From the sequence record ON528734: a stretch of DNA of 64,000 nucleotides; one strand, 5' to 3'. Under the pieces are notes generated by a model. That model searched no databases. It was not told the origin of the DNA and worked only from the letters and a program-made list of their open reading frames with translations. Below, in pieces: positions 20,117-54,820 of this stretch (its first letter is position 1; the number at the start of each line of letters is the position of its first letter). Both the position numbers and the translations under genes were made by a program. This stretch comes from Shigella phage ESh24.

Positions 20117-20189
20117 TGGGAATTAGCCAAGTTGGTAAGGCATAGCACTTTGACTGCTAGATGCAAAGGTTCGAGTCCTTTATTCCCAG
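20117..20189 (+). tRNA. tRNA-Gln (anticodon TTG)
   Basis: Cloverleaf: acceptor tgggaat/attccca, anticodon loop ctTTGac, T-arm ggttcgagtcc; no encoded CCA. Confidence 0.85.
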
Positions 20190-20190
20190 C

Positions 20191-20277
20191 GCGAGAATGG
20201 TCAAATTGGTAAAGGCACAGCACTTAAAATGCTGCGGAATGATTTCCTTGTGGGTTCGAGTCCCACTTCTCGCACCA
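20191..20277 (+). tRNA. tRNA-Leu (anticodon TAA), type II
   Basis: Acceptor gcgagaa/ttctcgc, anticodon loop ctTAAaa, long variable arm, 3' CCA encoded. Confidence 0.85.
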
Positions 20278-20282
20278 AATTT

Positions 20283-20356
<74 letters not shown>

Positions 20357-20402
20357 ATTTATGACTCGTCGTGAGACGCTCAGTTCTTTATTAGGGACTG
20401 AT

Positions 20403-21011
20403 ATGCATTTTTATCTTTATAAAATAACAAATAAAATTAATAATAAAATTTATATTGGTGTGCATTCTACCGAAAATTTAGATGATGGATATATGGGTTC
20501 TGGTAAATTATTAAAAAGAGCCCAAGATAAATATGGTATAGAAAATTTTTCTAAAGAAATATTAGAGTATTTTGACGATAAAGAATCTATGCTTGAAGCC
20601 GAGAAAAATATTGTCACAGAAGAGTTTTTAAATAGACCAGATGTGTATAATTTAAAACTTGGAGGTGAAGGTGGATGGGATCATATAAATAATTATCCTA
20701 TGACAGATCAGCAACGCGAATTAATTTCATTGGGTGTTAAAAAGGCACATTCTAATGGAAAATTAAAAGGATGGTCTTCAAATGGATTAATGAAGAATGG
20801 CTTTGCTGGTAAAACTCATTCTCAAGAAGCTAAACGTAAAATAGCAAAAGCAAACGAAGCAAAAGTTTCTGTGGATGAAAGAAAAAGAAGAATAGAAATT
20901 TCTAAATTATATGATTTTTCTAAACGTGGCGAATTGTCTAAATATGCTAAGCATATTGGCGTAAGTCATACTCAAGCAAAAAGAATTCTAAATCAAATTA
21001 ACAATATATAA
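20403..21011 (+). CDS. segB: GIY-YIG homing endonuclease in the tRNA cluster
   Basis: GIY-YIG motif FYLYKITNKINNKIYIGVHSTENLDDGYMGSGKLLKRA; start ATG 20403 (RBS aggga), alternative ATG 20361. Confidence 0.8.
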   Translation: MHFYLYKITNKINNKIYIGVHSTENLDDGYMGSGKLLKRAQDKYGIENFSKEILEYFDDKESMLEAEKNIVTEEFLNRPDVYNLKLGGEGGWDHINNYPMTDQQRELISLGVKKAHSNGKLKGWSSNGLMKNGFAGKTHSQEAKRKIAKANEAKVSVDERKRRIEISKLYDFSKRGELSKYAKHIGVSHTQAKRILNQINNI

Positions 21012-21017
21012 ATATTT

Positions 21018-21107
21018 GGAGGCGTGGCAGAGTGGTTTAATGCACCGGTCTTGAAAATCGGCAGTCGCTCCGGCGACTCATAGGTTCAAATCCTATCGCC
21101 TCCGCCA
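21018..21107 (+). tRNA. tRNA-Ser (anticodon TGA), type II
   Basis: Acceptor ggaggcg/cgcctcc, anticodon loop cTTGAaa, long variable arm, CCA encoded. Confidence 0.85.
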
Positions 21108-21112
21108 GTTTT

Positions 21113-21188
21113 GCTGATTTAGCTTAGTAGGTAGAGCAACTCACTTGTAATGAGAAGGTCGGCGGTTCGATTCCGTCAATCAGCACCA
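21113..21188 (+). tRNA. tRNA-Thr (anticodon TGT)
   Basis: Acceptor gctgatt/aatcagc, anticodon loop cTTGTaa, T-arm ggttcgattcc, CCA encoded. Confidence 0.85.
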
Positions 21189-21189
21189 A

Positions 21190-21264
21190 GGCCCTGTAGC
21201 TGGAAGGTTCAAGCAAGCGACTCATAATCGCCAGATGGTGGTTCAATTCCACCCAGGGCCACCA
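21190..21264 (+). tRNA. tRNA with anticodon CAT (Ile2 or Met; Ile by position in T4)
   Basis: Acceptor ggccctg/cagggcc, anticodon loop ctCATaa, T-arm ggttcaattcc, CCA encoded. Confidence 0.8.
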
Positions 21265-21276
21265 AATTATGAATTA

Positions 21277-21363
21277 GGGGAGTTATCCCGTAGAGGTAGC
21301 GGTGTGGACTGTAAATCCATTGTCATTGCGACTCGGGTGGTTCGACTCCATCACTCCCCACCA
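21277..21363 (+). tRNA. tRNA-Tyr (anticodon GTA), type II
   Basis: Acceptor ggggagt/actcccc, anticodon stem-loop gtgga-ctGTAaa-tccat, long variable arm, T-arm ggtgg-ttcgact-ccatc, CCA encoded. Confidence 0.75.
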
Positions 21364-21367
21364 ATTT

Positions 21368-21442
21368 GGATGTGTAGCTCAATGGCAGAGCGATCGCCTG
21401 TTAAGCGATTGGTTATAGGTTCGAATCCTATCACGTCCGCCA
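21368..21442 (+). tRNA. tRNA-Asn (anticodon GTT)
   Basis: Acceptor ggatgtg/cacgtcc, anticodon stem-loop atcgc-ctGTTaa-gcgat, T-arm ggttcgaatcc, CCA encoded. Confidence 0.8.
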
Positions 21443-21446
21443 AATA

Positions 21447-21522
21447 CGAGGCATAGCTCAGAAGGAAGAGCAAGGACCTTCTAAGTCCTAGGTCGTAGGT
21501 TCGATCCCTACTGCCTCGACCA
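21447..21522 (+). tRNA. tRNA-Arg (anticodon TCT)
   Basis: Acceptor cgaggca/tgcctcg, anticodon stem-loop aggac-cTTCTaa-gtcct, T-arm ggttcgatccc, CCA encoded. Confidence 0.85.
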
Positions 21523-47096: not shown

Positions 47097-47570
47097 ATGT
47101 TATTGACTGGCAAATTATACAAAGAAGAAAAACAGAAATTTTATGATGCACAAAATGGTAAATGTTTAATTTGCCAGCGAGAACTAAATCCTGATGTTCA
47201 AGCTAATCATCTTGATCATGACCATGAATTAAATGGACCAAAAGCAGGAAAGGTACGTGGATTGCTTTGTAATCTCTGCAATGCCGCAGAAGGTCAAATG
47301 AAACATAAATTTAATCGTTCTGGCTTAAAGGGGCAAGGTGTTGATTATCTTGAATGGTTAGAAAATTTACTTACTTATTTAAAATCCGATTACACCCAAA
47401 ATAATATTCACCCTAACTTTGTTGGAGATAAATCAAAGGAATTTTCTCGTTTAGGAAAAGATGAAATGATGGCTGAGATGCTTCAAAGAGGATTTGAATA
47501 TAATGAATCTGACACTAAAACACAGTTAATAGCTTCATTTAAGAAGCAGCTTAGAAAGAGTTTAAAATGA
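47097..47570 (+). CDS. 49: endonuclease VII (Holliday junction resolvase)
   Basis: 157 aa; Zn-binding cysteines CLICQ…CNLCN and HLDHDHE motif; same length as T4 gp49. Confidence 0.85.
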   Translation: MLLTGKLYKEEKQKFYDAQNGKCLICQRELNPDVQANHLDHDHELNGPKAGKVRGLLCNLCNAAEGQMKHKFNRSGLKGQGVDYLEWLENLLTYLKSDYTQNNIHPNFVGDKSKEFSRLGKDEMMAEMLQRGFEYNESDTKTQLIASFKKQLRKSLK

Positions 47571-49384
47571 CAATTGAAAAAGAAATTGAAGGATTGATTC
47601 ATAAAACTAATAAAGACCTTTTGAACGAGAATGCTAATAAAGATTCTCGTGTTTTTCCAACTCAACGGGACCTTATGGCTGGTATTGTGTCTAAACACAT
47701 TGCCAAAAATATGGTCCCGTCTTTTATTATGAAAGCGCATGAAAGCGGAATTATTCATTTCCATGATATTGATTATTCCCCTGCTCTTCCATTTACTAAT
47801 TGTTGTTTAGTAGATTTAAAAGGAATGCTTGAAAACGGATTTAAGCTTGGTAATGCACAGATTGAAACTCCTAAATCAATTGGAGTTGCTACTGCAATTA
47901 TGGCACAAATTACTGCGCAAGTTGCTTCTCACCAATACGGCGGAACGACCTTTGCGAATGTAGATAAAGTACTTTCTCCTTATGTTAAACGCACCTATGC
48001 AAAACATATTGAGGATGCAGAAAAATGGCAAATCGCCGATGCGTTGAATTATGCTCAATCTAAAACAGAAAAAGATGTATACGATGCATTCCAAGCTTAT
48101 GAATATGAAGTAAATACTCTCTTTAGTTCAAACGGACAGACTCCTTTTGTAACAATTACATTTGGTACGGGAACTGACTGGACTGAACGAATGATTCAGA
48201 AAGCAATTCTGAAAAATCGTATTAAAGGTCTTGGTCGTGATGGGATAACTCCTATTTTCCCTAAGCTTGTTATGTTCGTCGAAGAAGGTGTTAATCTTTA
48301 TAAAGACGATCCGAACTATGATATTAAGCAACTTGCTCTAGAGTGCGCAAGTAAAAGAATGTATCCTGATATTATTTCAGCTAAGAACAATAAAGCTATC
48401 ACTGGCTCATCTATTCCTGTTTCTCCAATGGGTTGTCGTAGTTTCTTGAGCATATGGAAAGATTCGACTGGTAATGAAATTCTTGATGGACGTAATAATC
48501 TTGGCGTTGTAACACTGAATCTTCCTCGTATCGCATTAGATTCTTATATTGGAACACAGTTCAATGAACAGAAATTTACTGAATTATTCAATGAACGAAT
48601 GGATTTATGTTTTGAAGCTTTGATGCGTAGAATTAGTTCCTTAAAAGGAGTTAAAGCTACTGTTGCTCCTATTCTTTACCAAGAAGGTGCATTCGGGGTT
48701 CGTCTTAAACCTGACGACGACATAATTGAGTTATTTAAAAACGGTAGAAGTTCAGTGTCTTTAGGATACATTGGTATTCACGAATTGAATATTCTTGCCG
48801 GTCGTGATATTGGACGAGAAATTTTAACTAAAATGAATGCTCGTCTTAAACAGTGGACTGAAAGAACTGGATTTGCTTTTAGTTTATATTCGACTCCTGC
48901 TGAAAACCTTTGTTATCGCTTCTGTAAACTTGATACTGAAAAATATGGAAGTGTAAAGGATGTTACCGATAAAGGCTGGTACACTAATAGTTTCCATGTT
49001 TCAGTAGAAGAAAATATTACTCCGTTTGAAAAGATTTCTCGTGAAGCGCCATATCATTTCATTGCGACAGGTGGTCACATTTCTTATGTTGAACTTCCTG
49101 ATATGAAAAATAACTTAAAGGGTCTTGAGGCTGTCTGGGATTATGCTGTGCAGCATTTAGATTATTTTGGTGTTAACATGCCAGTAGATAAGTGTTTTAC
49201 ATGCGGAAGTACCCATGAAATGACTCCTACTGAAAGCGGATTTGTTTGTTCTATTTGTGGAGAAAGTGATCCTAAAAAGATGAACACAATAAGAAGAACA
49301 TGTGGTTATTTGGGAAATCCGAACGAGCGCGGATTTAATCTTGGCAAAAATAAAGAAATCATGCATAGGGTTAAACACCAATGA
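47567..49384 (+). CDS. nrdD: anaerobic ribonucleotide reductase large subunit (class III)
   Basis: 605 aa contiguous ORF; C-terminal Zn-ribbon CFTCGS…CSICG and glycyl-radical tail RRTCGYLGN. Confidence 0.92.
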   Translation: MTIEKEIEGLIHKTNKDLLNENANKDSRVFPTQRDLMAGIVSKHIAKNMVPSFIMKAHESGIIHFHDIDYSPALPFTNCCLVDLKGMLENGFKLGNAQIETPKSIGVATAIMAQITAQVASHQYGGTTFANVDKVLSPYVKRTYAKHIEDAEKWQIADALNYAQSKTEKDVYDAFQAYEYEVNTLFSSNGQTPFVTITFGTGTDWTERMIQKAILKNRIKGLGRDGITPIFPKLVMFVEEGVNLYKDDPNYDIKQLALECASKRMYPDIISAKNNKAITGSSIPVSPMGCRSFLSIWKDSTGNEILDGRNNLGVVTLNLPRIALDSYIGTQFNEQKFTELFNERMDLCFEALMRRISSLKGVKATVAPILYQEGAFGVRLKPDDDIIELFKNGRSSVSLGYIGIHELNILAGRDIGREILTKMNARLKQWTERTGFAFSLYSTPAENLCYRFCKLDTEKYGSVKDVTDKGWYTNSFHVSVEENITPFEKISREAPYHFIATGGHISYVELPDMKNNLKGLEAVWDYAVQHLDYFGVNMPVDKCFTCGSTHEMTPTESGFVCSICGESDPKKMNTIRRTCGYLGNPNERGFNLGKNKEIMHRVKHQ

Positions 49385-49851
49385 ATTATGACAGAATATA
49401 CCCGTGCTGCTTTGTGAATGGCCCTGGATGCAGGACTGTTCTTTTCGTTACAGGTTGTTTGCATAAATGCGAAGGGTGTTATAATAAATCAACATGGAAT
49501 GCTAGAAATGGTATTCCATTCACTGGTGAAACACTAGAGCAATTAATTGAATGTTTGAATAATGATTATATAGAAGGATTAACTATAACTGGAGGAGACC
49601 CTCTCTATCCTGATAATCGAGATGTTATTCATTGCATTGTTCAAACAGTAAAAAATCTTTATCCCAATAAAAGCATTTGGTTGTGGACAGGATATAAATT
49701 TGAAGATATTAAACAACTAGAAATGCTTAAATATGTTGATGTTATTATTGATGGGAAGTATGAGAAAAATCTTCCGACTAAAAAGCTGTGGCGAGGATCA
49801 GATAATCAGCGACTTTGGTCAAATACCGATGGGGTGTGGAAACATGATTAA
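49381..49851 (+). CDS. nrdG: anaerobic RNR activating protein (radical SAM)
   Basis: 156 aa; Cys cluster CLHKCEGC; directly follows nrdD. Confidence 0.85.
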   Translation: MNYDRIYPCCFVNGPGCRTVLFVTGCLHKCEGCYNKSTWNARNGIPFTGETLEQLIECLNNDYIEGLTITGGDPLYPDNRDVIHCIVQTVKNLYPNKSIWLWTGYKFEDIKQLEMLKYVDVIIDGKYEKNLPTKKLWRGSDNQRLWSNTDGVWKHD

Positions 49852-49953: not shown

Positions 49954-50166
49954 ATGTATAAATTTCGTAAAGGTTTAGCTGATTTTCTTACAACTGTAAC
50001 ATTCTTTCTGTTTATGGCAGTTGGAGCTATTTTCCTTATTCCTTTTATTGCTATATTTTTCGTGATTAGTTTAATTTCTCCAGAAAAGGGCTTATCTTCT
50101 AGTGAGTTTAATGAGCGTCTGGATAAAATTACTAACAAGCTGAATGCTGCTCTTAGTAAGGAATAG
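49954..50166 (+). CDS. small membrane protein
   Basis: 70 aa with hydrophobic core TVTFFLFMAVGAIFLIPFIAIFFVISLI. Confidence 0.5.
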   Translation: MYKFRKGLADFLTTVTFFLFMAVGAIFLIPFIAIFFVISLISPEKGLSSSEFNERLDKITNKLNAALSKE

Positions 50167-50168
50167 TT

Positions 50169-50477
50169 GTGAAACAAAATAAGATTGAAGTCTATGGAAT
50201 TCCAGATGAAGTAGGTCGTTGTCCTGGATGTCAATCAGTTACAAAACTTCTAAAGGAGCTCAATGCTCCTTTTACTTTCTATAAAGTTCTTACAAATAAC
50301 GGTAAGATTGAGTATGATCGTCCGCTGATTGTATCTCTTGCTAAACGCGCTGGATTCACATCTCTTAACATTCGTTATCCAGTCATTTTCATTAATGATT
50401 CTAGACAAAAGAACATTAAACACTTCAAAGAAACTCTCATTTCACTTGGATATGATAGAGATATCATAGAAGACTAA
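50169..50477 (+). CDS. nrdH: glutaredoxin-like protein
   Basis: 102 aa; CxxC motif CPGC near the N-terminus; followed by a terminator. Confidence 0.65.
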   Translation: MKQNKIEVYGIPDEVGRCPGCQSVTKLLKELNAPFTFYKVLTNNGKIEYDRPLIVSLAKRAGFTSLNIRYPVIFINDSRQKNIKHFKETLISLGYDRDIIED

Positions 50478-50480
50478 GAC

Positions 50481-50500
50481 GGGCCCTCTGGGCCTTTCTT
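50481..50500 (+). terminator. intrinsic terminator
   Basis: ggccc-tct-gggcc hairpin followed by a T-rich tract. Confidence 0.5.
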
Positions 50501-50575
50501 TCTTACATTCTGTATATTACCATTCTAAGCTATCGTTCCATTCTTATCATTCCCTAAAATAATTTTCACAAAGTT

Positions 50576-50606
50576 GTTTACAACAAGTTCAAACTGTGGT
50601 ATTATT
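50576..50606 (+). promoter_or_regulatory. early-type promoter (GTTTACA … TGGTATTAT)
   Basis: aattttcacaaagttgtttaca block as at 38651 and 18741. Confidence 0.5.
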
Positions 50607-50635
50607 AACACATGAATTGCCTTTGAGGAATTGAT

Positions 50636-50818
50636 ATGGTTGTGGTTGATAAAGAAATTAAAAAGGGACAGTATTATCTTATTAATGGTAATGCTGTTCG
50701 CGTTACTTACGTAAATGGTTATGATGTTTATTATCTTATACTTAAGTTACATAAACACATGATTTGTGACCGTGCTGTATTTAGTTCAGTTGCTAAGGAA
50801 ATTAAACTCCATGGGTAA
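50636..50818 (+). CDS. small hypothetical protein
   Basis: 60 aa; RBS gaggaattgat. Confidence 0.5.
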   Translation: MVVVDKEIKKGQYYLINGNAVRVTYVNGYDVYYLILKLHKHMICDRAVFSSVAKEIKLHG

Positions 50819-51104
50819 AACGTATCGTCGTAAAGACTTAAAAGTGCGTGATTATGACTATTTCGGAAAGCGTAAAGCTCCTGACGGTGTTAGCCACAAA
50901 GACATGGTTGAAAACATTTTCCGCTCAGATAAATGGAAACGTATGAAAGGCGTTGATTCTGAAGTCAAGAACGAAATGAATCGACAACTCCGCAAAGAAG
51001 TTCGTAAGTTGAAAAAAGATGTTTACAGTAAAGAAGAGTATGATTATAATACTTCTCATACTGAAGCCAAACGTAAAGCTAACGAATGTTATCGTTACAG
51101 TTGA
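50811..51104 (+). CDS. highly basic small protein
   Basis: 97 aa from ATG 50811; Lys/Arg-rich. Confidence 0.5.
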   Translation: MGKTYRRKDLKVRDYDYFGKRKAPDGVSHKDMVENIFRSDKWKRMKGVDSEVKNEMNRQLRKEVRKLKKDVYSKEEYDYNTSHTEAKRKANECYRYS

Positions 51105-51111
51105 GGAAAAT

Positions 51112-51243
51112 ATGAATATCAAACGCTGGCTTTTTAAGCAAGGGTTCTACACTTTAAATTCTGCTCCAAAAGGCGATACAACTAAGTGGTCAGTAAATGA
51201 CTGGATTAAATTCATTGATGAAAATGGTAATTGGAAAATTTAA
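51112..51243 (+). CDS. small hypothetical protein
   Basis: 43 aa; strong RBS gaggaaaat. Confidence 0.4.
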   Translation: MNIKRWLFKQGFYTLNSAPKGDTTKWSVNDWIKFIDENGNWKI

Positions 51244-51444
51244 ATGAATCCTGAATCTAAATTATCGCAACGAATTGCTGAAGCTCGTCGCCAGTTCTTT
51301 GAAAATATGATAGCCCAAGGTATTGATGACGAAGTTTTTCTAAACTGGTTTTGGAATCACAAATATTCAAGTTGCTCAGGAGCAATATTAATATCAGCCG
51401 CAATGATGTACGAAGGCTGGAAGGGTGCCAAACAGTTTAGCTAA
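51244..51444 (+). CDS. small hypothetical protein
   Basis: 66 aa; followed by terminator agggc-ttcg-gccct + TTTTT (51444-51462). Confidence 0.5.
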   Translation: MNPESKLSQRIAEARRQFFENMIAQGIDDEVFLNWFWNHKYSSCSGAILISAAMMYEGWKGAKQFS

Positions 51445-51496
51445 GGGCTTCGGCCCTTTTTGGATAATAAAATTTTAATGCAATTGAGGATAATGT

Positions 51497-51823
51497 ATGA
51501 CTATTCAAATTAAAAACGCCATCAATTCTTACGCATATGATAAAGTAGTTTCTTTGCTAGAAAAAGGCGATATTGTAACTCCTCAAATTTTGGATAAATG
51601 GGAAAAAGAGCTTCATCAGACGATGAAACAGAATGATCAGAAGATTGGACGCAATACTGTCCGTGAATTGTTGGTTCAATATATCTTGTCAGAATTTGAT
51701 GTTAAAGCTTTTGGTGTAGAATCTAAAGCTTATCAAAAGCATGAAATTTCCGATAAGACTATTCGTCGCATGAAAAATCAACGCAAGAAAAAATTTGCAG
51801 ACCTGAAAATTACTAAGGTATAA
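51497..51823 (+). CDS. hypothetical protein
   Basis: 108 aa; RBS tgaggataatgt. Confidence 0.55.
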   Translation: MTIQIKNAINSYAYDKVVSLLEKGDIVTPQILDKWEKELHQTMKQNDQKIGRNTVRELLVQYILSEFDVKAFGVESKAYQKHEISDKTIRRMKNQRKKKFADLKITKV

Positions 51824-51825
51824 TT

Positions 51826-52041
51826 ATGAACGAAGCTCTTATTAACGATTTACGTCTTGCCGGATATGAAGTAAATACAAACGGCAATGGTTTAACTCAA
51901 ATTGAAGGAAATGGATTCATCCTTGAGTATGAATTTAGCCAATGGTGGTTATATGCTAATTACGGCGAATTAATTAAATATGTTGACCAATTTGATTCAC
52001 TAGATGCAGCTCTTGGAGCGGCTAAGCTAATGAATGCTTGA
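51826..52041 (+). CDS. small hypothetical protein
   Basis: 71 aa. Confidence 0.5.
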   Translation: MNEALINDLRLAGYEVNTNGNGLTQIEGNGFILEYEFSQWWLYANYGELIKYVDQFDSLDAALGAAKLMNA

Positions 52042-52123
52042 AATTGATTCATCCTCTATGCTTTAAGATAGATCTTCAAATATTATGATATAATAGATCT
52101 ATGAATTGAGCTAAGAGGTGAAA

Positions 52124-52681
52124 ATGTCAGAAACTAAGCCTAAATATAATTACGTAAACAATAAAGAGCTTTTACAAGCTATTATTGATTGGAAAACAGA
52201 ATTAGCAAATAATAAAGACCCAAATAAAGTAGTTCGTCAGAATGATACTATCGGATTAGCCATTATGCTTATTGCAGAAGGCTTATCTAAACGTTTCAAC
52301 TTTTCAGGATACACCCAGTCTTGGAAACAAGAAATGATTGCAGATGGTATAGAAGCTTCTATTAAGGGGCTTCATAATTTTGATGAAACGAAATATAAAA
52401 ACCCACATGCATATATAACTCAAGCTTGTTTTAATGCATTCGTCCAGCGTATTAAAAAAGAACGTAAGGAAGTTGCAAAGAAATATAGTTACTTCGTTCA
52501 CAATGTCTATGACAGTCGTGACGACGATATGGTTGCGTTAGTAGATGAAACTTTTATTCAAGACATCTATGATAAAATGACGCATTACGAAGAATCAACC
52601 TATAGAACACCGGGGGCTGAAAAGAAAAGTGTTGTAGACGATTCTCCTAGTTTGGATTTTTTATATGAGGCTAACGATTAA
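52124..52681 (+). CDS. 55: late-transcription sigma factor
   Basis: 185 aa from ATG 52124 (RBS aagaggtgaaa), [20 protein letters not shown]…; same length as T4 gp55. Confidence 0.9.
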
Positions 52682-53617: not shown

Positions 53618-54820
53618 ATGAAAGTATGTATTTTTATGGCTCGAGGTCTTGAAGGTTGTGGTGTAACAAAATTCTCACTCGAGCAACGTGATTGGTTTAT
53701 TAAAAATGGTCATGAAGTAACTTTGGTTTATGCTAAAGATAAATCATTTACTCGTAATTGTGCGCATGATTATAAGTCATTTTCAATTCCGGTTTTATTG
53801 GCAAAAGAATATGATAAAACACTTAAGCTGGTAAATGATTGTGATATTCTAATTATCAATTCAGTTCCTGCTACTTCGGTTGAAGAAGACACTATTAATA
53901 ACTATAAAAAAATTATTGATAACATTAAACCTTCTGTTCGTGTTGTAGTTTATCAGCATGACCATTCTTCTCTTTCTTTGCGCCGAAATTTGGGATTAGA
54001 AGAAACTGTTCGTCGAGCTGATGTTATTTTTAGCCATTCTGATAATGGTGATTTTAATAAAGTTCTGATGAAAGAATGGTATCCAGAAACTGTTTCTCTG
54101 TTTGATGATATTGAAGAAGCACCGACCGTATACAACTTTCAGCCTCCGATGGATATTGCTAAGGTTCGGTCAACCTACTGGAAAGATGTTTCTGAAATTA
54201 ACATGAATATTAACCGTTGGATTGGTCGTACGACTACATGGAAAGGTTTTTATCAGATGTTTGATTTTCACGAAAAACATCTTAAACCTGCAGGACTAAG
54301 TACTATTATGGAAGGTCTGGAACGTTCTCCAGCGTTCATTCCTATTAAAGAAAAAGGAATTCCATACGAGTATTATCGTCTTCATCAAGTAGACCAAATT
54401 AAAATTGCTCCTAATTTGCCAACGCAAATTCTTGACCGTTATGTAAATAGCGAAATGCTTGAACGCATGAGTAAATCCGGTTTTGGTTATCAGCTGAGTA
54501 AATTAGATAAAAAATATCTACAACGTTCTTTAGAATATACTCATCTCGAGCTTGGTGCATGTGGAACAATTCCGGTATTTTGGAAATCTACTGGCGAAAA
54601 TTTAAAATTCCGTGTTGATAATACTCCTTTGACCTCGCATGATAGCGGTATCATTTGGTTTGATGAAAATGACATGGAATCAACATTTGAACGTATTAAA
54701 GAACTGTCATCTGACCGAACTCTTTATGACCGCGAACGCGAAAAAGCTTATGAATTTTTGTATCAGCATCAAGATTCAAGCTTCTGCTTTAAAGAACAGT
54801 TTGACATTATTACAAAATAA
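53618..54820 (+). CDS. a-gt: DNA alpha-glucosyltransferase
   Basis: 400 aa, MKVCIFMARGLEGCGVTKFSLEQRDWF…; same length as T4 AGT. Confidence 0.9.
   Translation: MKVCIFMARGLEGCGVTKFSLEQRDWFIKNGHEVTLVYAKDKSFTRNCAHDYKSFSIPVLLAKEYDKTLKLVNDCDILIINSVPATSVEEDTINNYKKIIDNIKPSVRVVVYQHDHSSLSLRRNLGLEETVRRADVIFSHSDNGDFNKVLMKEWYPETVSLFDDIEEAPTVYNFQPPMDIAKVRSTYWKDVSEINMNINRWIGRTTTWKGFYQMFDFHEKHLKPAGLSTIMEGLERSPAFIPIKEKGIPYEYYRLHQVDQIKIAPNLPTQILDRYVNSEMLERMSKSGFGYQLSKLDKKYLQRSLEYTHLELGACGTIPVFWKSTGENLKFRVDNTPLTSHDSGIIWFDENDMESTFERIKELSSDRTLYDREREKAYEFLYQHQDSSFCFKEQFDIITK

What the first reader, a model, noticed from the sequence alone, without database searches (positions are those of the whole stretch)
50811..51104. 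Highly basic 97-aa protein
The protein is ~30% Lys/Arg and is followed by several tiny ORFs between nrdH and gene 55. Small basic proteins in phage early regions often bind nucleic acid or host nucleoid proteins.
Basis: inference. Interest (0 to 1): 0.22.

Follow-up and report, generated by a model that had tools for sequence, protein, structure and literature searches.

The report
T4 gene 55.5 ortholog, uncharacterised
The flagged ORF is a real, conserved early gene of T4-like phages (the ortholog of T4 gene 55.5, Pfam DUF5499): a small, strongly basic protein that is known to be made in infection but has never been given a function, so this is an ordinary, already catalogued "hypothetical" gene.

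Summary
Window 50811-51104 (+) encodes a 97-aa protein with 28 Lys/Arg (28.9%), pI 9.8 and net charge about +11. It is the most K/R-rich ORF of at least 60 aa on this strand. It lies between nrdH and gene 55 and is followed by ORFs of 43, 66, 108 and 71 aa.

It is the ortholog of phage T4 gene 55.5. It matches Pfam DUF5499 over its full length (E = 2.9e-54) and PHROG 1774, and has homologs in 815 phage records. In T4 both the mRNA and the protein are classed as early.

The gene is under purifying selection (median dN/dS 0.14). The family is small and phage-only. Members are 82-110 aa, basic throughout, and have invariant ends (N-terminal MGKTxRRK, C-terminal KAN-x-C-Y-x-Y-S). None was found in 185,579 bacterial and archaeal species genomes.

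No function could be assigned. There is no PDB, NCBIfam or PADLOC hit. AlphaFold gives only low-confidence helices (pLDDT about 63), and Foldseek finds nothing significant.

My best guess, at modest confidence, is a non-enzymatic protein that folds on binding a polyanionic partner, either nucleic acid or a nucleic-acid-bound host machine. The DNA-binding neighbour gp55.2 is a functional precedent, not a homolog. The gene keeps close to ribonucleotide-reductase and glutaredoxin genes in T4-like and FelixO1-like phages; this is suggestive, not decisive.

Verdict: already known, low interest.

The parts
50481..50495 (+). Intrinsic-terminator-like hairpin plus T-run directly after nrdH. It marks the upstream boundary of the transcription unit that holds 55.5.
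   Evidence: Terminator scan. RNA fold -15.3 kcal/mol, z = -3.7.
50577..50605 (+). Promoter-like site TTTACA-17-TATTAT with an extended -10 TG, about 30 nt upstream of 55.6. It is the candidate early promoter for 55.6-55.5-55.4-55.3.
   Evidence: Consensus scan, 10/12 matches plus TG. Both hexamers and the 17-nt spacing are identical in RB32; the spacer differs at three positions. The T4 orthologs are classed as early. This is a consensus match only, not shown to be functional here.
50636..50818 (+). Gene 55.6 ortholog (60 aa, PHROG 2283). It is the upstream cistron, and its stop overlaps the 55.5 start codon.
50795..50799 (+). Shine-Dalgarno-like AAGGA, 11 nt before the 55.5 ATG.
   Evidence: Read directly from the sequence.
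50811..51104 (+). The finding: the gene 55.5 ortholog, 97 aa, Pfam DUF5499 / PHROG 1774. It is a polycationic protein of low hydrophobicity, predicted to be helical.
   Evidence: Pfam 182 bits, positions 1-97 of 97. PHROG. RB32 annotation names it '55.5'. 815 phage records carry a homolog. dN/dS 0.14. AF2 pLDDT 63-64.
51112..51243 (+). Gene 55.4 ortholog (43 aa, DUF5484), the next cistron, with its own GAGG Shine-Dalgarno.
51244..51444 (+). Gene 55.3 ortholog (66 aa, DUF5490), the last cistron before the next hairpin.
51443..51461 (+). Hairpin AAGGGC-UUCG-GCCCUU followed by UUU. It is the probable terminator that closes the 55.6-55.3 unit.
   Evidence: Read from the sequence. Centroid fold -9.3 kcal/mol. 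It falls just below the scan's T-run threshold and is not significant against shuffles (z = -1.1), so this is tentative.

Best explanation
Identity (shown, about 0.97 sure): this is the ortholog of bacteriophage T4 early gene 55.5. It is a genuine protein-coding gene of the DUF5499 / PHROG 1774 family. It is the second cistron of a short early transcription unit (55.6-55.5-55.4-55.3) that lies between nrdH and the late sigma factor gene 55.

Mechanism (inferred; the confidence figure refers to this part): gp55.5 is a non-enzymatic, probably non-essential accessory protein. It has little hydrophobic core and does not fold stably on its own. It works by binding a polyanionic partner in the infected cell. 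The partner is most probably nucleic acid (DNA or RNA) or a conserved nucleic-acid-bound host machine.

The proposed contact elements are three: the invariant N-terminal basic motif G-K-T-x-R-R-K, the central H-S-D-K-P-K-R-W...S-x-V-K segment with the long basic helix (residues about 50-73; R61 is invariant, R65 nearly so), and the conserved basic/aromatic C-terminal tail K-R-K-A-N-x-C-Y-x-Y-S.

The expected effect is a subtle modulation of a host or phage nucleic-acid transaction early in infection. This would resemble the neighbouring basic protein gp55.2, which binds DNA and blocks topoisomerase I.
For: Identity:
- Full-length Pfam DUF5499 hit, E = 2.9e-54, and PHROG 1774.
- RB32 annotates the syntenic gene as 55.5.
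- 84.5% amino-acid identity to T4's copy, and homologs in 815 phage records.
- The phiEa21-4 annotation cites T4 gp55.5.

Real gene:
- Median dN/dS is 0.14 over 171 pairs.
- One pair shows zero non-synonymous changes at dS = 0.21.
- The T4 ortholog is detected as early RNA and early protein.

Mechanism, all indirect:
- The basic charge is conserved across the family despite about 30% identity (mean K+R 23%, net +8, pI 9.7), and hydrophobic residues make up only about 25%.
- The most conserved positions are basic or terminal: K3, R6, R7, K8, K53, R61, R65 and K87-K89.
- AF2 with 33 and with 46 sequences gives helices without confident packing (pLDDT 62.9 and 63.9, pTM 0.43 and 0.29). This is typical of proteins that fold on a partner.
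- The family is found in T4-like phages, FelixO1-like phages and other unrelated phage contigs. That argues for a conserved target rather than a strain-specific one.
- gp55.2, three genes downstream and also basic, binds DNA in vitro (PMC4396842).
- gp55.2 shares only a short K-T-I-R-R-x-K motif with the gp55.5 N-terminus.
Against: - No sequence or fold similarity to any known DNA- or RNA-binding family. Pfam shows only DUF hits, NCBIfam has none, the PDB profile search has none, and Foldseek against PDB and BFVD finds nothing below E = 1.6.
- D+E is also high (17.5%), so part of the 'basicity' is simply a highly charged helical composition.
- Conserved aromatic residues and strictly conserved termini fit a specific protein-protein docking role equally well.
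- The K-T-I-R-R match to gp55.2 is not significant (hhalign probability 1.6%).
- No experimental paper on 55.5 was found in eight full-text searches.
Confidence: 0.4

Rival explanations
1. gp55.5 is a specific protein-protein inhibitor or modulator of a conserved host enzyme, with no meaningful nucleic-acid binding. This would resemble other T4 early ORFans in this cluster. I recall that 55.1 acts on folate metabolism and nucleotide-excision repair; that was not checked here. The invariant N- and C-termini would act as docking peptides.
For: - The extreme conservation sits at the two ends (MGKTxRRK, and aromatic-x-aromatic-Ser at the C-terminus) and in a Pro/Trp-containing central motif. This looks like short linear docking motifs.
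- The AF2 model is not confidently folded. This also fits folding on a protein partner.
Against: - No partner is known.
- Net charge of +8 to +11 is conserved family-wide. That is not needed for a generic protein-protein interface.
- No literature on toxicity or on an interaction was found.
Confidence: 0.25
2. gp55.5 is an accessory or regulatory factor of the phage ribonucleotide-reduction module (NrdD/NrdG, NrdA/NrdB, glutaredoxin NrdH). For example, it might tether or regulate the reductase, or regulate nrd mRNA.
For: Linkage to nrd genes is kept through several different gene orders:
- T4-likes: nrdD-nrdG-55.8-nrdH-(55.6)-55.5.
- Bragavirus PM2: nrdD-x-55.5-nrdG-x-glutaredoxin.
- Erwinia Kolesnikvirus: nrdA-nrdB-glutaredoxin-x-55.5.
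- Three FelixO1-like contigs: nrdD, then 1.3-3 kb, then the 55.5-like gene, then 0.7-2.2 kb, then nrdG.
Against: - The most divergent members lie on contigs with no nrd gene within the available 3-8 kb. One of these is near dUTPase/dCD and another near thymidine kinase.
- In one FelixO1-like contig about 3.9 kb of unrelated genes separates it from the glutaredoxin.
- Block inheritance of an early nucleotide-metabolism region explains the linkage without any functional tie.
- The single Cys (C93) is not conserved (23 of 46), so a redox role is unlikely.
Confidence: 0.1
3. gp55.5 is a counter-defence protein, or a trigger sensed by a defence system. It would neutralise an acidic or nucleic-acid-like component of a bacterial immune system.
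For: - It is a small, early, dispensable-looking gene in a plastic accessory region.
- In this window 55.5 and 55.4 form a mosaic patch (83% and 90% nucleotide identity to RB32) inside flanks of 97-99.5% identity. Two allele classes exist among Tequatroviruses: 149 records at 95% identity or more, and 501 at 80-90%. This pattern is often seen for host-interaction genes.
- FelixO1-like homologs lie a few kb from Prs-like and NAPRTase genes. From memory, those genes form an NAD+-reconstitution counter-defence pair.
Against: - No PADLOC hit, and no known anti-defence family matched.
- Selection between the allele classes is purifying, not diversifying (dN/dS 0.10-0.18).
- The invariant motifs are conserved across very different phages. 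That argues for a conserved target rather than a rapidly evolving immune protein.
Confidence: 0.12
4. It is not a real gene: a chance ORF whose lysine richness only reflects the AT-rich genome.
For: The genome is 34.8% GC, which favours AAA/AAG codons.
Against: - dN/dS 0.14.
- Conserved in 815 phage records, with full-length relatives down to 22-36% identity in the family alignment.
- The protein is detected in T4-infected cells.
- It has the highest K+R of 108 ORFs, far beyond the 99th percentile.
Confidence: 0.01

Closest known systems
Bacteriophage T4 gp55.5 (UniProt P07079 according to the PMC9697503 table; Pfam PF17603 DUF5499; PHROG 1774)
   Same: - Same length (97 aa) and 84.5% identity.
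- Same position between nrdH/55.6 and 55.4.
- Same start overlap with 55.6.
- Full-length family HMM match.
   Different: This window carries the minority allele class. That class is 95-100% identical in about 149 phage records, such as E. coli O157 typing phage 3 and Shigella phage Shf125875. It differs from the T4/RB32 allele at 15 of 97 residues, mostly in residues 70-86. No function is known for either allele.
T4 gp55.2 (DUF7570), a DNA-binding inhibitor of E. coli topoisomerase I
   Same: - Small, basic (20% K+R, pI 9.7), early, and encoded in the same gene cluster.
- Shares a short K-T-I-R-R-x-K motif.
- Gives a precedent for how such a protein can work: it binds DNA and blocks a host enzyme.
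   Different: Not homologous (hhalign probability 1.6%). The motif is N-terminal in gp55.5 but near the C-terminus in gp55.2. Nothing shows that gp55.5 touches DNA or topoisomerase.
Arginine-rich-motif RNA-binding proteins such as lambdoid phage N antiterminators (comparison from memory only)
   Same: About 100 aa, basic, poorly structured alone, with an N-terminal K/R-T-R-R-type basic motif and separately conserved central and C-terminal segments.
   Different: No sequence homology and no Pfam hit. The gp55.5 motif has only four basic residues. No nut/boxB-type RNA targets were sought or are known in T4-like phages. This is a lead, not a test.

Membership tests
Pfam DUF5499 / PHROG 1774 (T4 gp55.5 family) | Full-length match to the family HMM above the curated cut-off | tested here: met
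   PF17603: 182.1 bits against a cut-off of 27, residues 1-97 on profile 1-97. phrog_1774: E = 2.9e-46, full length.
Pfam DUF5499 / PHROG 1774 (T4 gp55.5 family) | Stand-alone protein of about 82-110 aa with N-terminal M-G-K-T-x-R-R-K, a central [FY]-H/R-S-D-K-x-K-R motif, and a C-terminal K-[AS]-N-x-x-aromatic-x-aromatic-S end | tested here: met
   All three motifs are present in the window protein (MGKTYRRK; FRSDKWKR; KANECYRYS). Alignments A2 and A3.
Pfam DUF5499 / PHROG 1774 (T4 gp55.5 family) | T4-type synteny: nrdH, 55.6, 55.5, 55.4/55.3, 55.2, 55.1, 55 | tested here: met
   RB32 annotation. tblastn map of 37 loci.
Pfam DUF5499 / PHROG 1774 (T4 gp55.5 family) | Early expression in infection | not testable with these tools
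   For this phage there is only a promoter consensus match. The T4 ortholog is classed as early RNA and early protein (PMC9697503 supplement).
Known DNA/RNA-binding families (HU/IHF, H-NS, Fis, HTH, ribosomal proteins such as bS21, Hfq/ProQ and others) | Significant sequence-profile or fold match | tested here: not met
   Pfam at E <= 1 returns only DUF5499 and a sub-threshold DUF7295 hit. NCBIfam has none. The PDB profile search has none at E <= 10. The best Foldseek E-value against PDB is 3.5, for eL19-type long helices, and is not significant. The best against BFVD is 1.6.
gp55.2 family (DUF7570, topoisomerase I inhibitor) | Profile-profile homology | tested here: not met
   hhalign of A3 against A4: probability 1.6%, with only 10 columns aligned.
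Known anti-phage defence or anti-defence components | Match to PADLOC models | tested here: not met
   No hit at E <= 1. PADLOC holds defence proteins rather than phage counter-defence proteins, so this test is weak.
Lambdoid N-type antiterminators (arginine-rich motif plus nut RNA) | N-terminal arginine-rich motif that binds a boxB hairpin, and nut sites in the phage's early transcripts | not tested
   There is only a compositional resemblance of residues 2-8. No homology was found in Pfam. No search for RNA targets was made.

The most novel reading that the evidence does not exclude
gp55.5 could be the founding member of a phage-only class of polycationic proteins that fold on binding. It would act on a universally conserved host machine, for instance by binding ribosomes or rRNA to bias translation early in infection. 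Alternatively it would be the missing regulatory or tethering subunit that travels with phage ribonucleotide reductase and glutaredoxin genes. The strictly invariant N- and C-terminal peptides would be the functional contacts.
Probability: 0.1. Interest if true: 0.5.

Novelty: already known. Interest (0 to 1): 0.15.

Why it matters
As it stands this matters little. The ORF is a catalogued conserved hypothetical gene of the best-studied phage, and nothing in the sequence gives it a function.

It is still a reasonable small target for T4 'dark matter' work, for five reasons:
- The protein is made early in infection.
- It is strongly constrained.
- It is restricted to virulent phages.
- It is conserved from T4-like to FelixO1-like phages.
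- It has unusually invariant termini.

Two neighbours in the same cluster, 55.1 and 55.2, turned out to modulate host enzymes. A defined target for gp55.5 would add one more host-takeover mechanism. It might also explain why the gene stays beside the nrd genes.

Tried and rejected
1. Remote homology.
- Pfam, PHROGs, NCBIfam and PADLOC scans gave only DUF/unknown families.
- The PDB profile search gave no hit at E <= 10.
- An exhaustive HMMER search of 1.84 billion representative proteins with a 33-sequence profile found only 23 representatives. All but one are small stand-alone relatives; the exception is a repetitive 711-aa protein that I judge spurious.

2. Structure.
- Two AF2 runs (33 and 46 sequences) stayed at pLDDT about 63.
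- Foldseek against PDB and BFVD found nothing significant.
- The third fold-search job was not spent, because the model is too uncertain.

3. Literature.
- Searches for DUF5499, gp55.5, gene-name combinations and accession numbers found no functional study.
- The main texts of the 55.2 paper, a toxic-protein screen of phage fHy-Eco03, a phage-trigger library paper and the CRISPRi-ART preprint do not mention 55.5. The one CRISPRi-ART supplement held as text does not mention it either.
- A 2026 Mosigvirus preprint could not be opened.

4. Co-travelling partner. The upstream small ORFs in T4-like phages, Marfavirus, PM2 and phiEa21-4 show no evident similarity to one another on inspection of the translations; no formal comparison was run. 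I found no sign that 55.5 is part of a conserved two-gene module.

5. Paralogy with gp55.2: rejected.

6. Redox role through the single Cys: rejected, because C93 is present in only half of the members.

7. Presence in bacterial genomes or prophages: none in 185,579 species genomes.

8. Rfam scan of the whole window: only the tRNA cluster, and nothing near the finding.

Full report
**What is there**

The window is a piece of a Tequatrovirus (T4-like) genome. A 2.6-kb query around the finding matches 803 phage records, and the best matches are about 96% identical.

On the + strand the gene order is as follows:
- nrdD (47567-49384)
- nrdG (49381-49851)
- a 55.8-like membrane ORF (49954-50166)
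- nrdH (50169-50477)
- 55.6 (50636-50818)
- the finding, 55.5 (50811-51104)
- 55.4 (51112-51243)
- 55.3 (51244-51444)
- 55.2 (51497-51823)
- 55.1 (51826-52041)
- gene 55, the late sigma factor (to 52681)
- a-gt (53618-54820)

Gene names come from the RB32 record.

**Checking the observation**

The ORF translates to 97 residues with 17 Lys and 11 Arg (28.9%). D+E is 17.5%, pI is 9.76, net charge is about +11 and GRAVY is -1.63. It has the highest K+R fraction of the 108 ORFs of at least 60 aa on the + strand (mean 12.7%, 99th percentile 22.8%). AT-richness alone therefore does not explain the bias.

The ATG at 50811 is the real start. Every one of 46 aligned relatives starts M-G/S-K-T. An AAGGA lies 11 nt upstream, and the ATG overlaps the stop codon of 55.6.

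The 'several tiny ORFs' that follow are genuine genes, each with its own Pfam DUF family.

**Identity**

The protein matches Pfam PF17603 (DUF5499) from end to end at 182 bits, E = 2.9e-54. It also matches PHROG 1774, 'unknown function'.

tblastn finds it in 815 of 50,697 phage records, and 813 of those hits cover at least 80% of the query. The syntenic RB32 gene is annotated 55.5. The phiEa21-4 record explicitly calls its copy 'similar to T4 gp55.5'. This is the ortholog of T4 gene 55.5, at 84.5% identity to T4's own copy.

**Is it a real, expressed gene?**

Nineteen distinct T4-like alleles give a median dN/dS of 0.14 (range 0-0.28). The window and locus L005 encode identical proteins despite dS = 0.21.

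The published time-resolved T4 transcriptome and proteome study lists 55.5 as 'early-RNA_early-Protein', together with 55.6, 55.4 and 55.2 (PMC9697503 supplement).

A promoter-like TTTACA-17-TATTAT with an extended -10 TG lies at 50577-50605, just after a strong terminator hairpin behind nrdH at 50481-50495. A UUCG-loop hairpin with a short U-run follows 55.3 at 51443-51461. The 55.6-55.5-55.4-55.3 genes thus look like one short early unit. This rests on consensus matches only.

**Extent and hallmarks of the family**

An exhaustive HMMER search of 1.84 billion representative proteins, using a 33-sequence profile, found only 23 representatives at E <= 1e-3. All but one are small stand-alone proteins of up to 110 aa (two are short fragment or frameshifted forms). 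The exception is a repetitive 711-aa protein that I judge spurious. No relative was found in one genome from each of 185,579 bacterial and archaeal species. The family is confined to phages.

Conserved features:
- N-terminal M-G-K-T-x-R-R-K. M1, T4 and R6 are invariant in all 46 aligned sequences; G2, K3 and R7 are in at least 44 of 46; K8 is in 41 of 46.
- Central [FY]-H-S-D-K-P-K-R-W-x-G...S-x-V-K.
- R61 invariant and R65 nearly so, within a long predicted helix.
- C-terminal K-R-K-[AS]-N-x-C/G-[YWF]-x-[YHW]-S at the very end.

Basicity is a family property. Mean K+R is 23%, pI 9.7 and net charge +8, with only about 25% hydrophobic residues, even at about 30% identity.

**Attempts to assign function**

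NCBIfam, PADLOC and a PDB profile search gave nothing.

AlphaFold2 with 33 and then 46 sequences gave pLDDT 62.9 and 63.9 and pTM 0.43 and 0.29. The predicted helices fall at about residues 29-38, 50-73 and 79/83-90, with no confident tertiary packing. Foldseek against PDB and BFVD found nothing below E = 1.6. The top PDB hits are long rRNA-bound helices of eL19 and are not significant.

Profile-profile comparison with the neighbouring basic protein gp55.2 shows no homology (probability 1.6%). The only aligned stretch is K-T-I-R-R-x-K, which is N-terminal in gp55.5 and covers residues 86-92 in gp55.2.

No paper dealing with the function of 55.5 was found.

**Genomic context beyond T4**

In all T4-like loci the gene follows nrdH and precedes 55.2 and gene 55. 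Other arrangements are:
- Proteus phage PM2 and relatives: it lies between nrdD and nrdG.
- Erwinia Kolesnikviruses (Ounavirinae): it follows nrdA-nrdB-glutaredoxin and one small ORF.
- Three other FelixO1-like contigs: it lies between nrdD and nrdG, upstream of Prs-like and NAPRTase genes.
- A fourth FelixO1-like contig: it lies about 3.9 kb after nrdAB-glutaredoxin.

More divergent members sit on contigs with no nrd gene in the available flanks. One is near dUTPase/dCD and another near thymidine kinase.

The upstream small ORF shows no evident similarity between lineages on inspection, so there is no sign of a two-gene module. The nrd linkage is notable. It is explained at least as well by inheritance of an early nucleotide-metabolism block as by a functional tie.

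**Most likely mechanism**

The shown facts are these. The gene is a real, early, constrained, phage-only gene. It encodes a polycationic, poorly hydrophobic, helix-prone protein with invariant basic N-terminal and basic/aromatic C-terminal peptides.

The inference is that it is a non-enzymatic binder that folds on a polyanionic partner. That partner would be nucleic acid or a conserved nucleic-acid-bound machine. The result would be modulation of a host or phage nucleic-acid transaction, by analogy with gp55.2, which binds DNA and blocks topoisomerase I (PMC4396842).

I put this at about 0.4. The rivals are:
- A pure protein-protein inhibitor of a host enzyme (0.25).
- A counter-defence role (0.12).
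- An accessory of the ribonucleotide-reductase/glutaredoxin module (0.1).
- A chance ORF (excluded).

**Verdict**

However, the feature is the already named and catalogued T4 gene 55.5 (DUF5499), and nothing found here goes beyond 'conserved early protein of unknown function'. Novelty: already known. Interest: low (0.15).

The most novel reading still open is a ribosome/rRNA-directed or RNR-coupled polycationic factor. I give that about 0.1 probability, and it would be of moderate interest if true.

Noticed in passing
window 50811-51243 (55.5 and 55.4) against the flanks 49954-50810 and 51244-52681: There is a mosaic patch. Against RB32, nucleotide identity is 83% in 55.5 and 90% in 55.4, but 97-99.5% in 55.8, nrdH, 55.6, 55.3, 55.2, 55.1 and gene 55. 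The same 55.5 protein (100% identical) occurs in a phage (L005) whose neighbouring genes are only 53-75% identical. This indicates gene-sized allele exchange. About 149 phage records carry this allele class and about 501 carry the T4 class.
   Followed up: partly
window about 51011-51016 (A-run in TTGAAAAAAGATG, codons 67-69 of 55.5), and the +1-frame ORF 51019-51243: Four database clusters carry a frameshift exactly at this A-run. P0032, P0034 and P0035 (143 aa) consist of 55.5 residues 1-68, then the +1 frame, read through into 55.4 as a fusion. Phage Bp7 (P0036, 87 aa) is shifted at the same place. The +1 frame is open from 51019 into 55.4 (74-aa ORF), and PHROG 24953 models such a 74-aa form. 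It is unresolved whether this is homopolymer sequencing error, real pseudogenisation or fusion, or ribosomal frameshifting.
   Followed up: partly
window 51022-51050 (+), inside the 3' end of 55.5: This is the best sigma-70-type promoter match of the region (TTTACA-17-TATAAT, 11/12), about 60 nt upstream of 55.4. Both hexamers are conserved in all Tequatrovirus alleles examined. They coincide with conserved V-Y and D-Y-N codons. The -35 hexamer is lost in some of the more divergent alleles (L014, L016 and L020, 74-75% protein identity). It could be an internal early promoter for 55.4-55.3, or a by-product of coding constraint.
   Followed up: partly
window 50811-50837 (55.5 residues 3-9) and 51752-51772 (55.2 residues 86-92): Two non-homologous basic proteins of the same cluster share the short motif K-T-[IY]-R-R-[KM]-K. 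It was the only stretch aligned by hhalign, and the match is not significant. gp55.2 is a DNA-binding topoisomerase I inhibitor (PMC4396842).
   Followed up: partly
L003, L004 and L028-L032, L037, L038, L040 (related loci): DUF5499 genes stay within 0.3-4 kb of ribonucleotide-reductase or glutaredoxin genes in T4-like, Bragavirus, Kolesnikvirus and other FelixO1-like phages, despite different local gene orders. In three FelixO1-like contigs the gene lies between nrdD and nrdG, upstream of Prs-like and NAPRTase genes. More distant members show no such linkage on the short contigs available.
   Followed up: partly
window 20117-21519 (+): There is a cluster of nine Rfam tRNA hits. One, at 21279-21358, scores only just above threshold (30.2 bits against a gathering score of 29). 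I take this to be the T4-type tRNA gene region (from memory). It is unrelated to the finding.
   Followed up: no
window 49954-50166 (+): The 70-aa ORF between nrdG and nrdH (55.8-like, PHROG 1930) has a hydrophobic core (FFLFMAVGAIFLIPFIAIFFVISL), which suggests a small membrane protein. A counterpart of similar layout precedes nrdH in Klebsiella Marfavirus.
   Followed up: no
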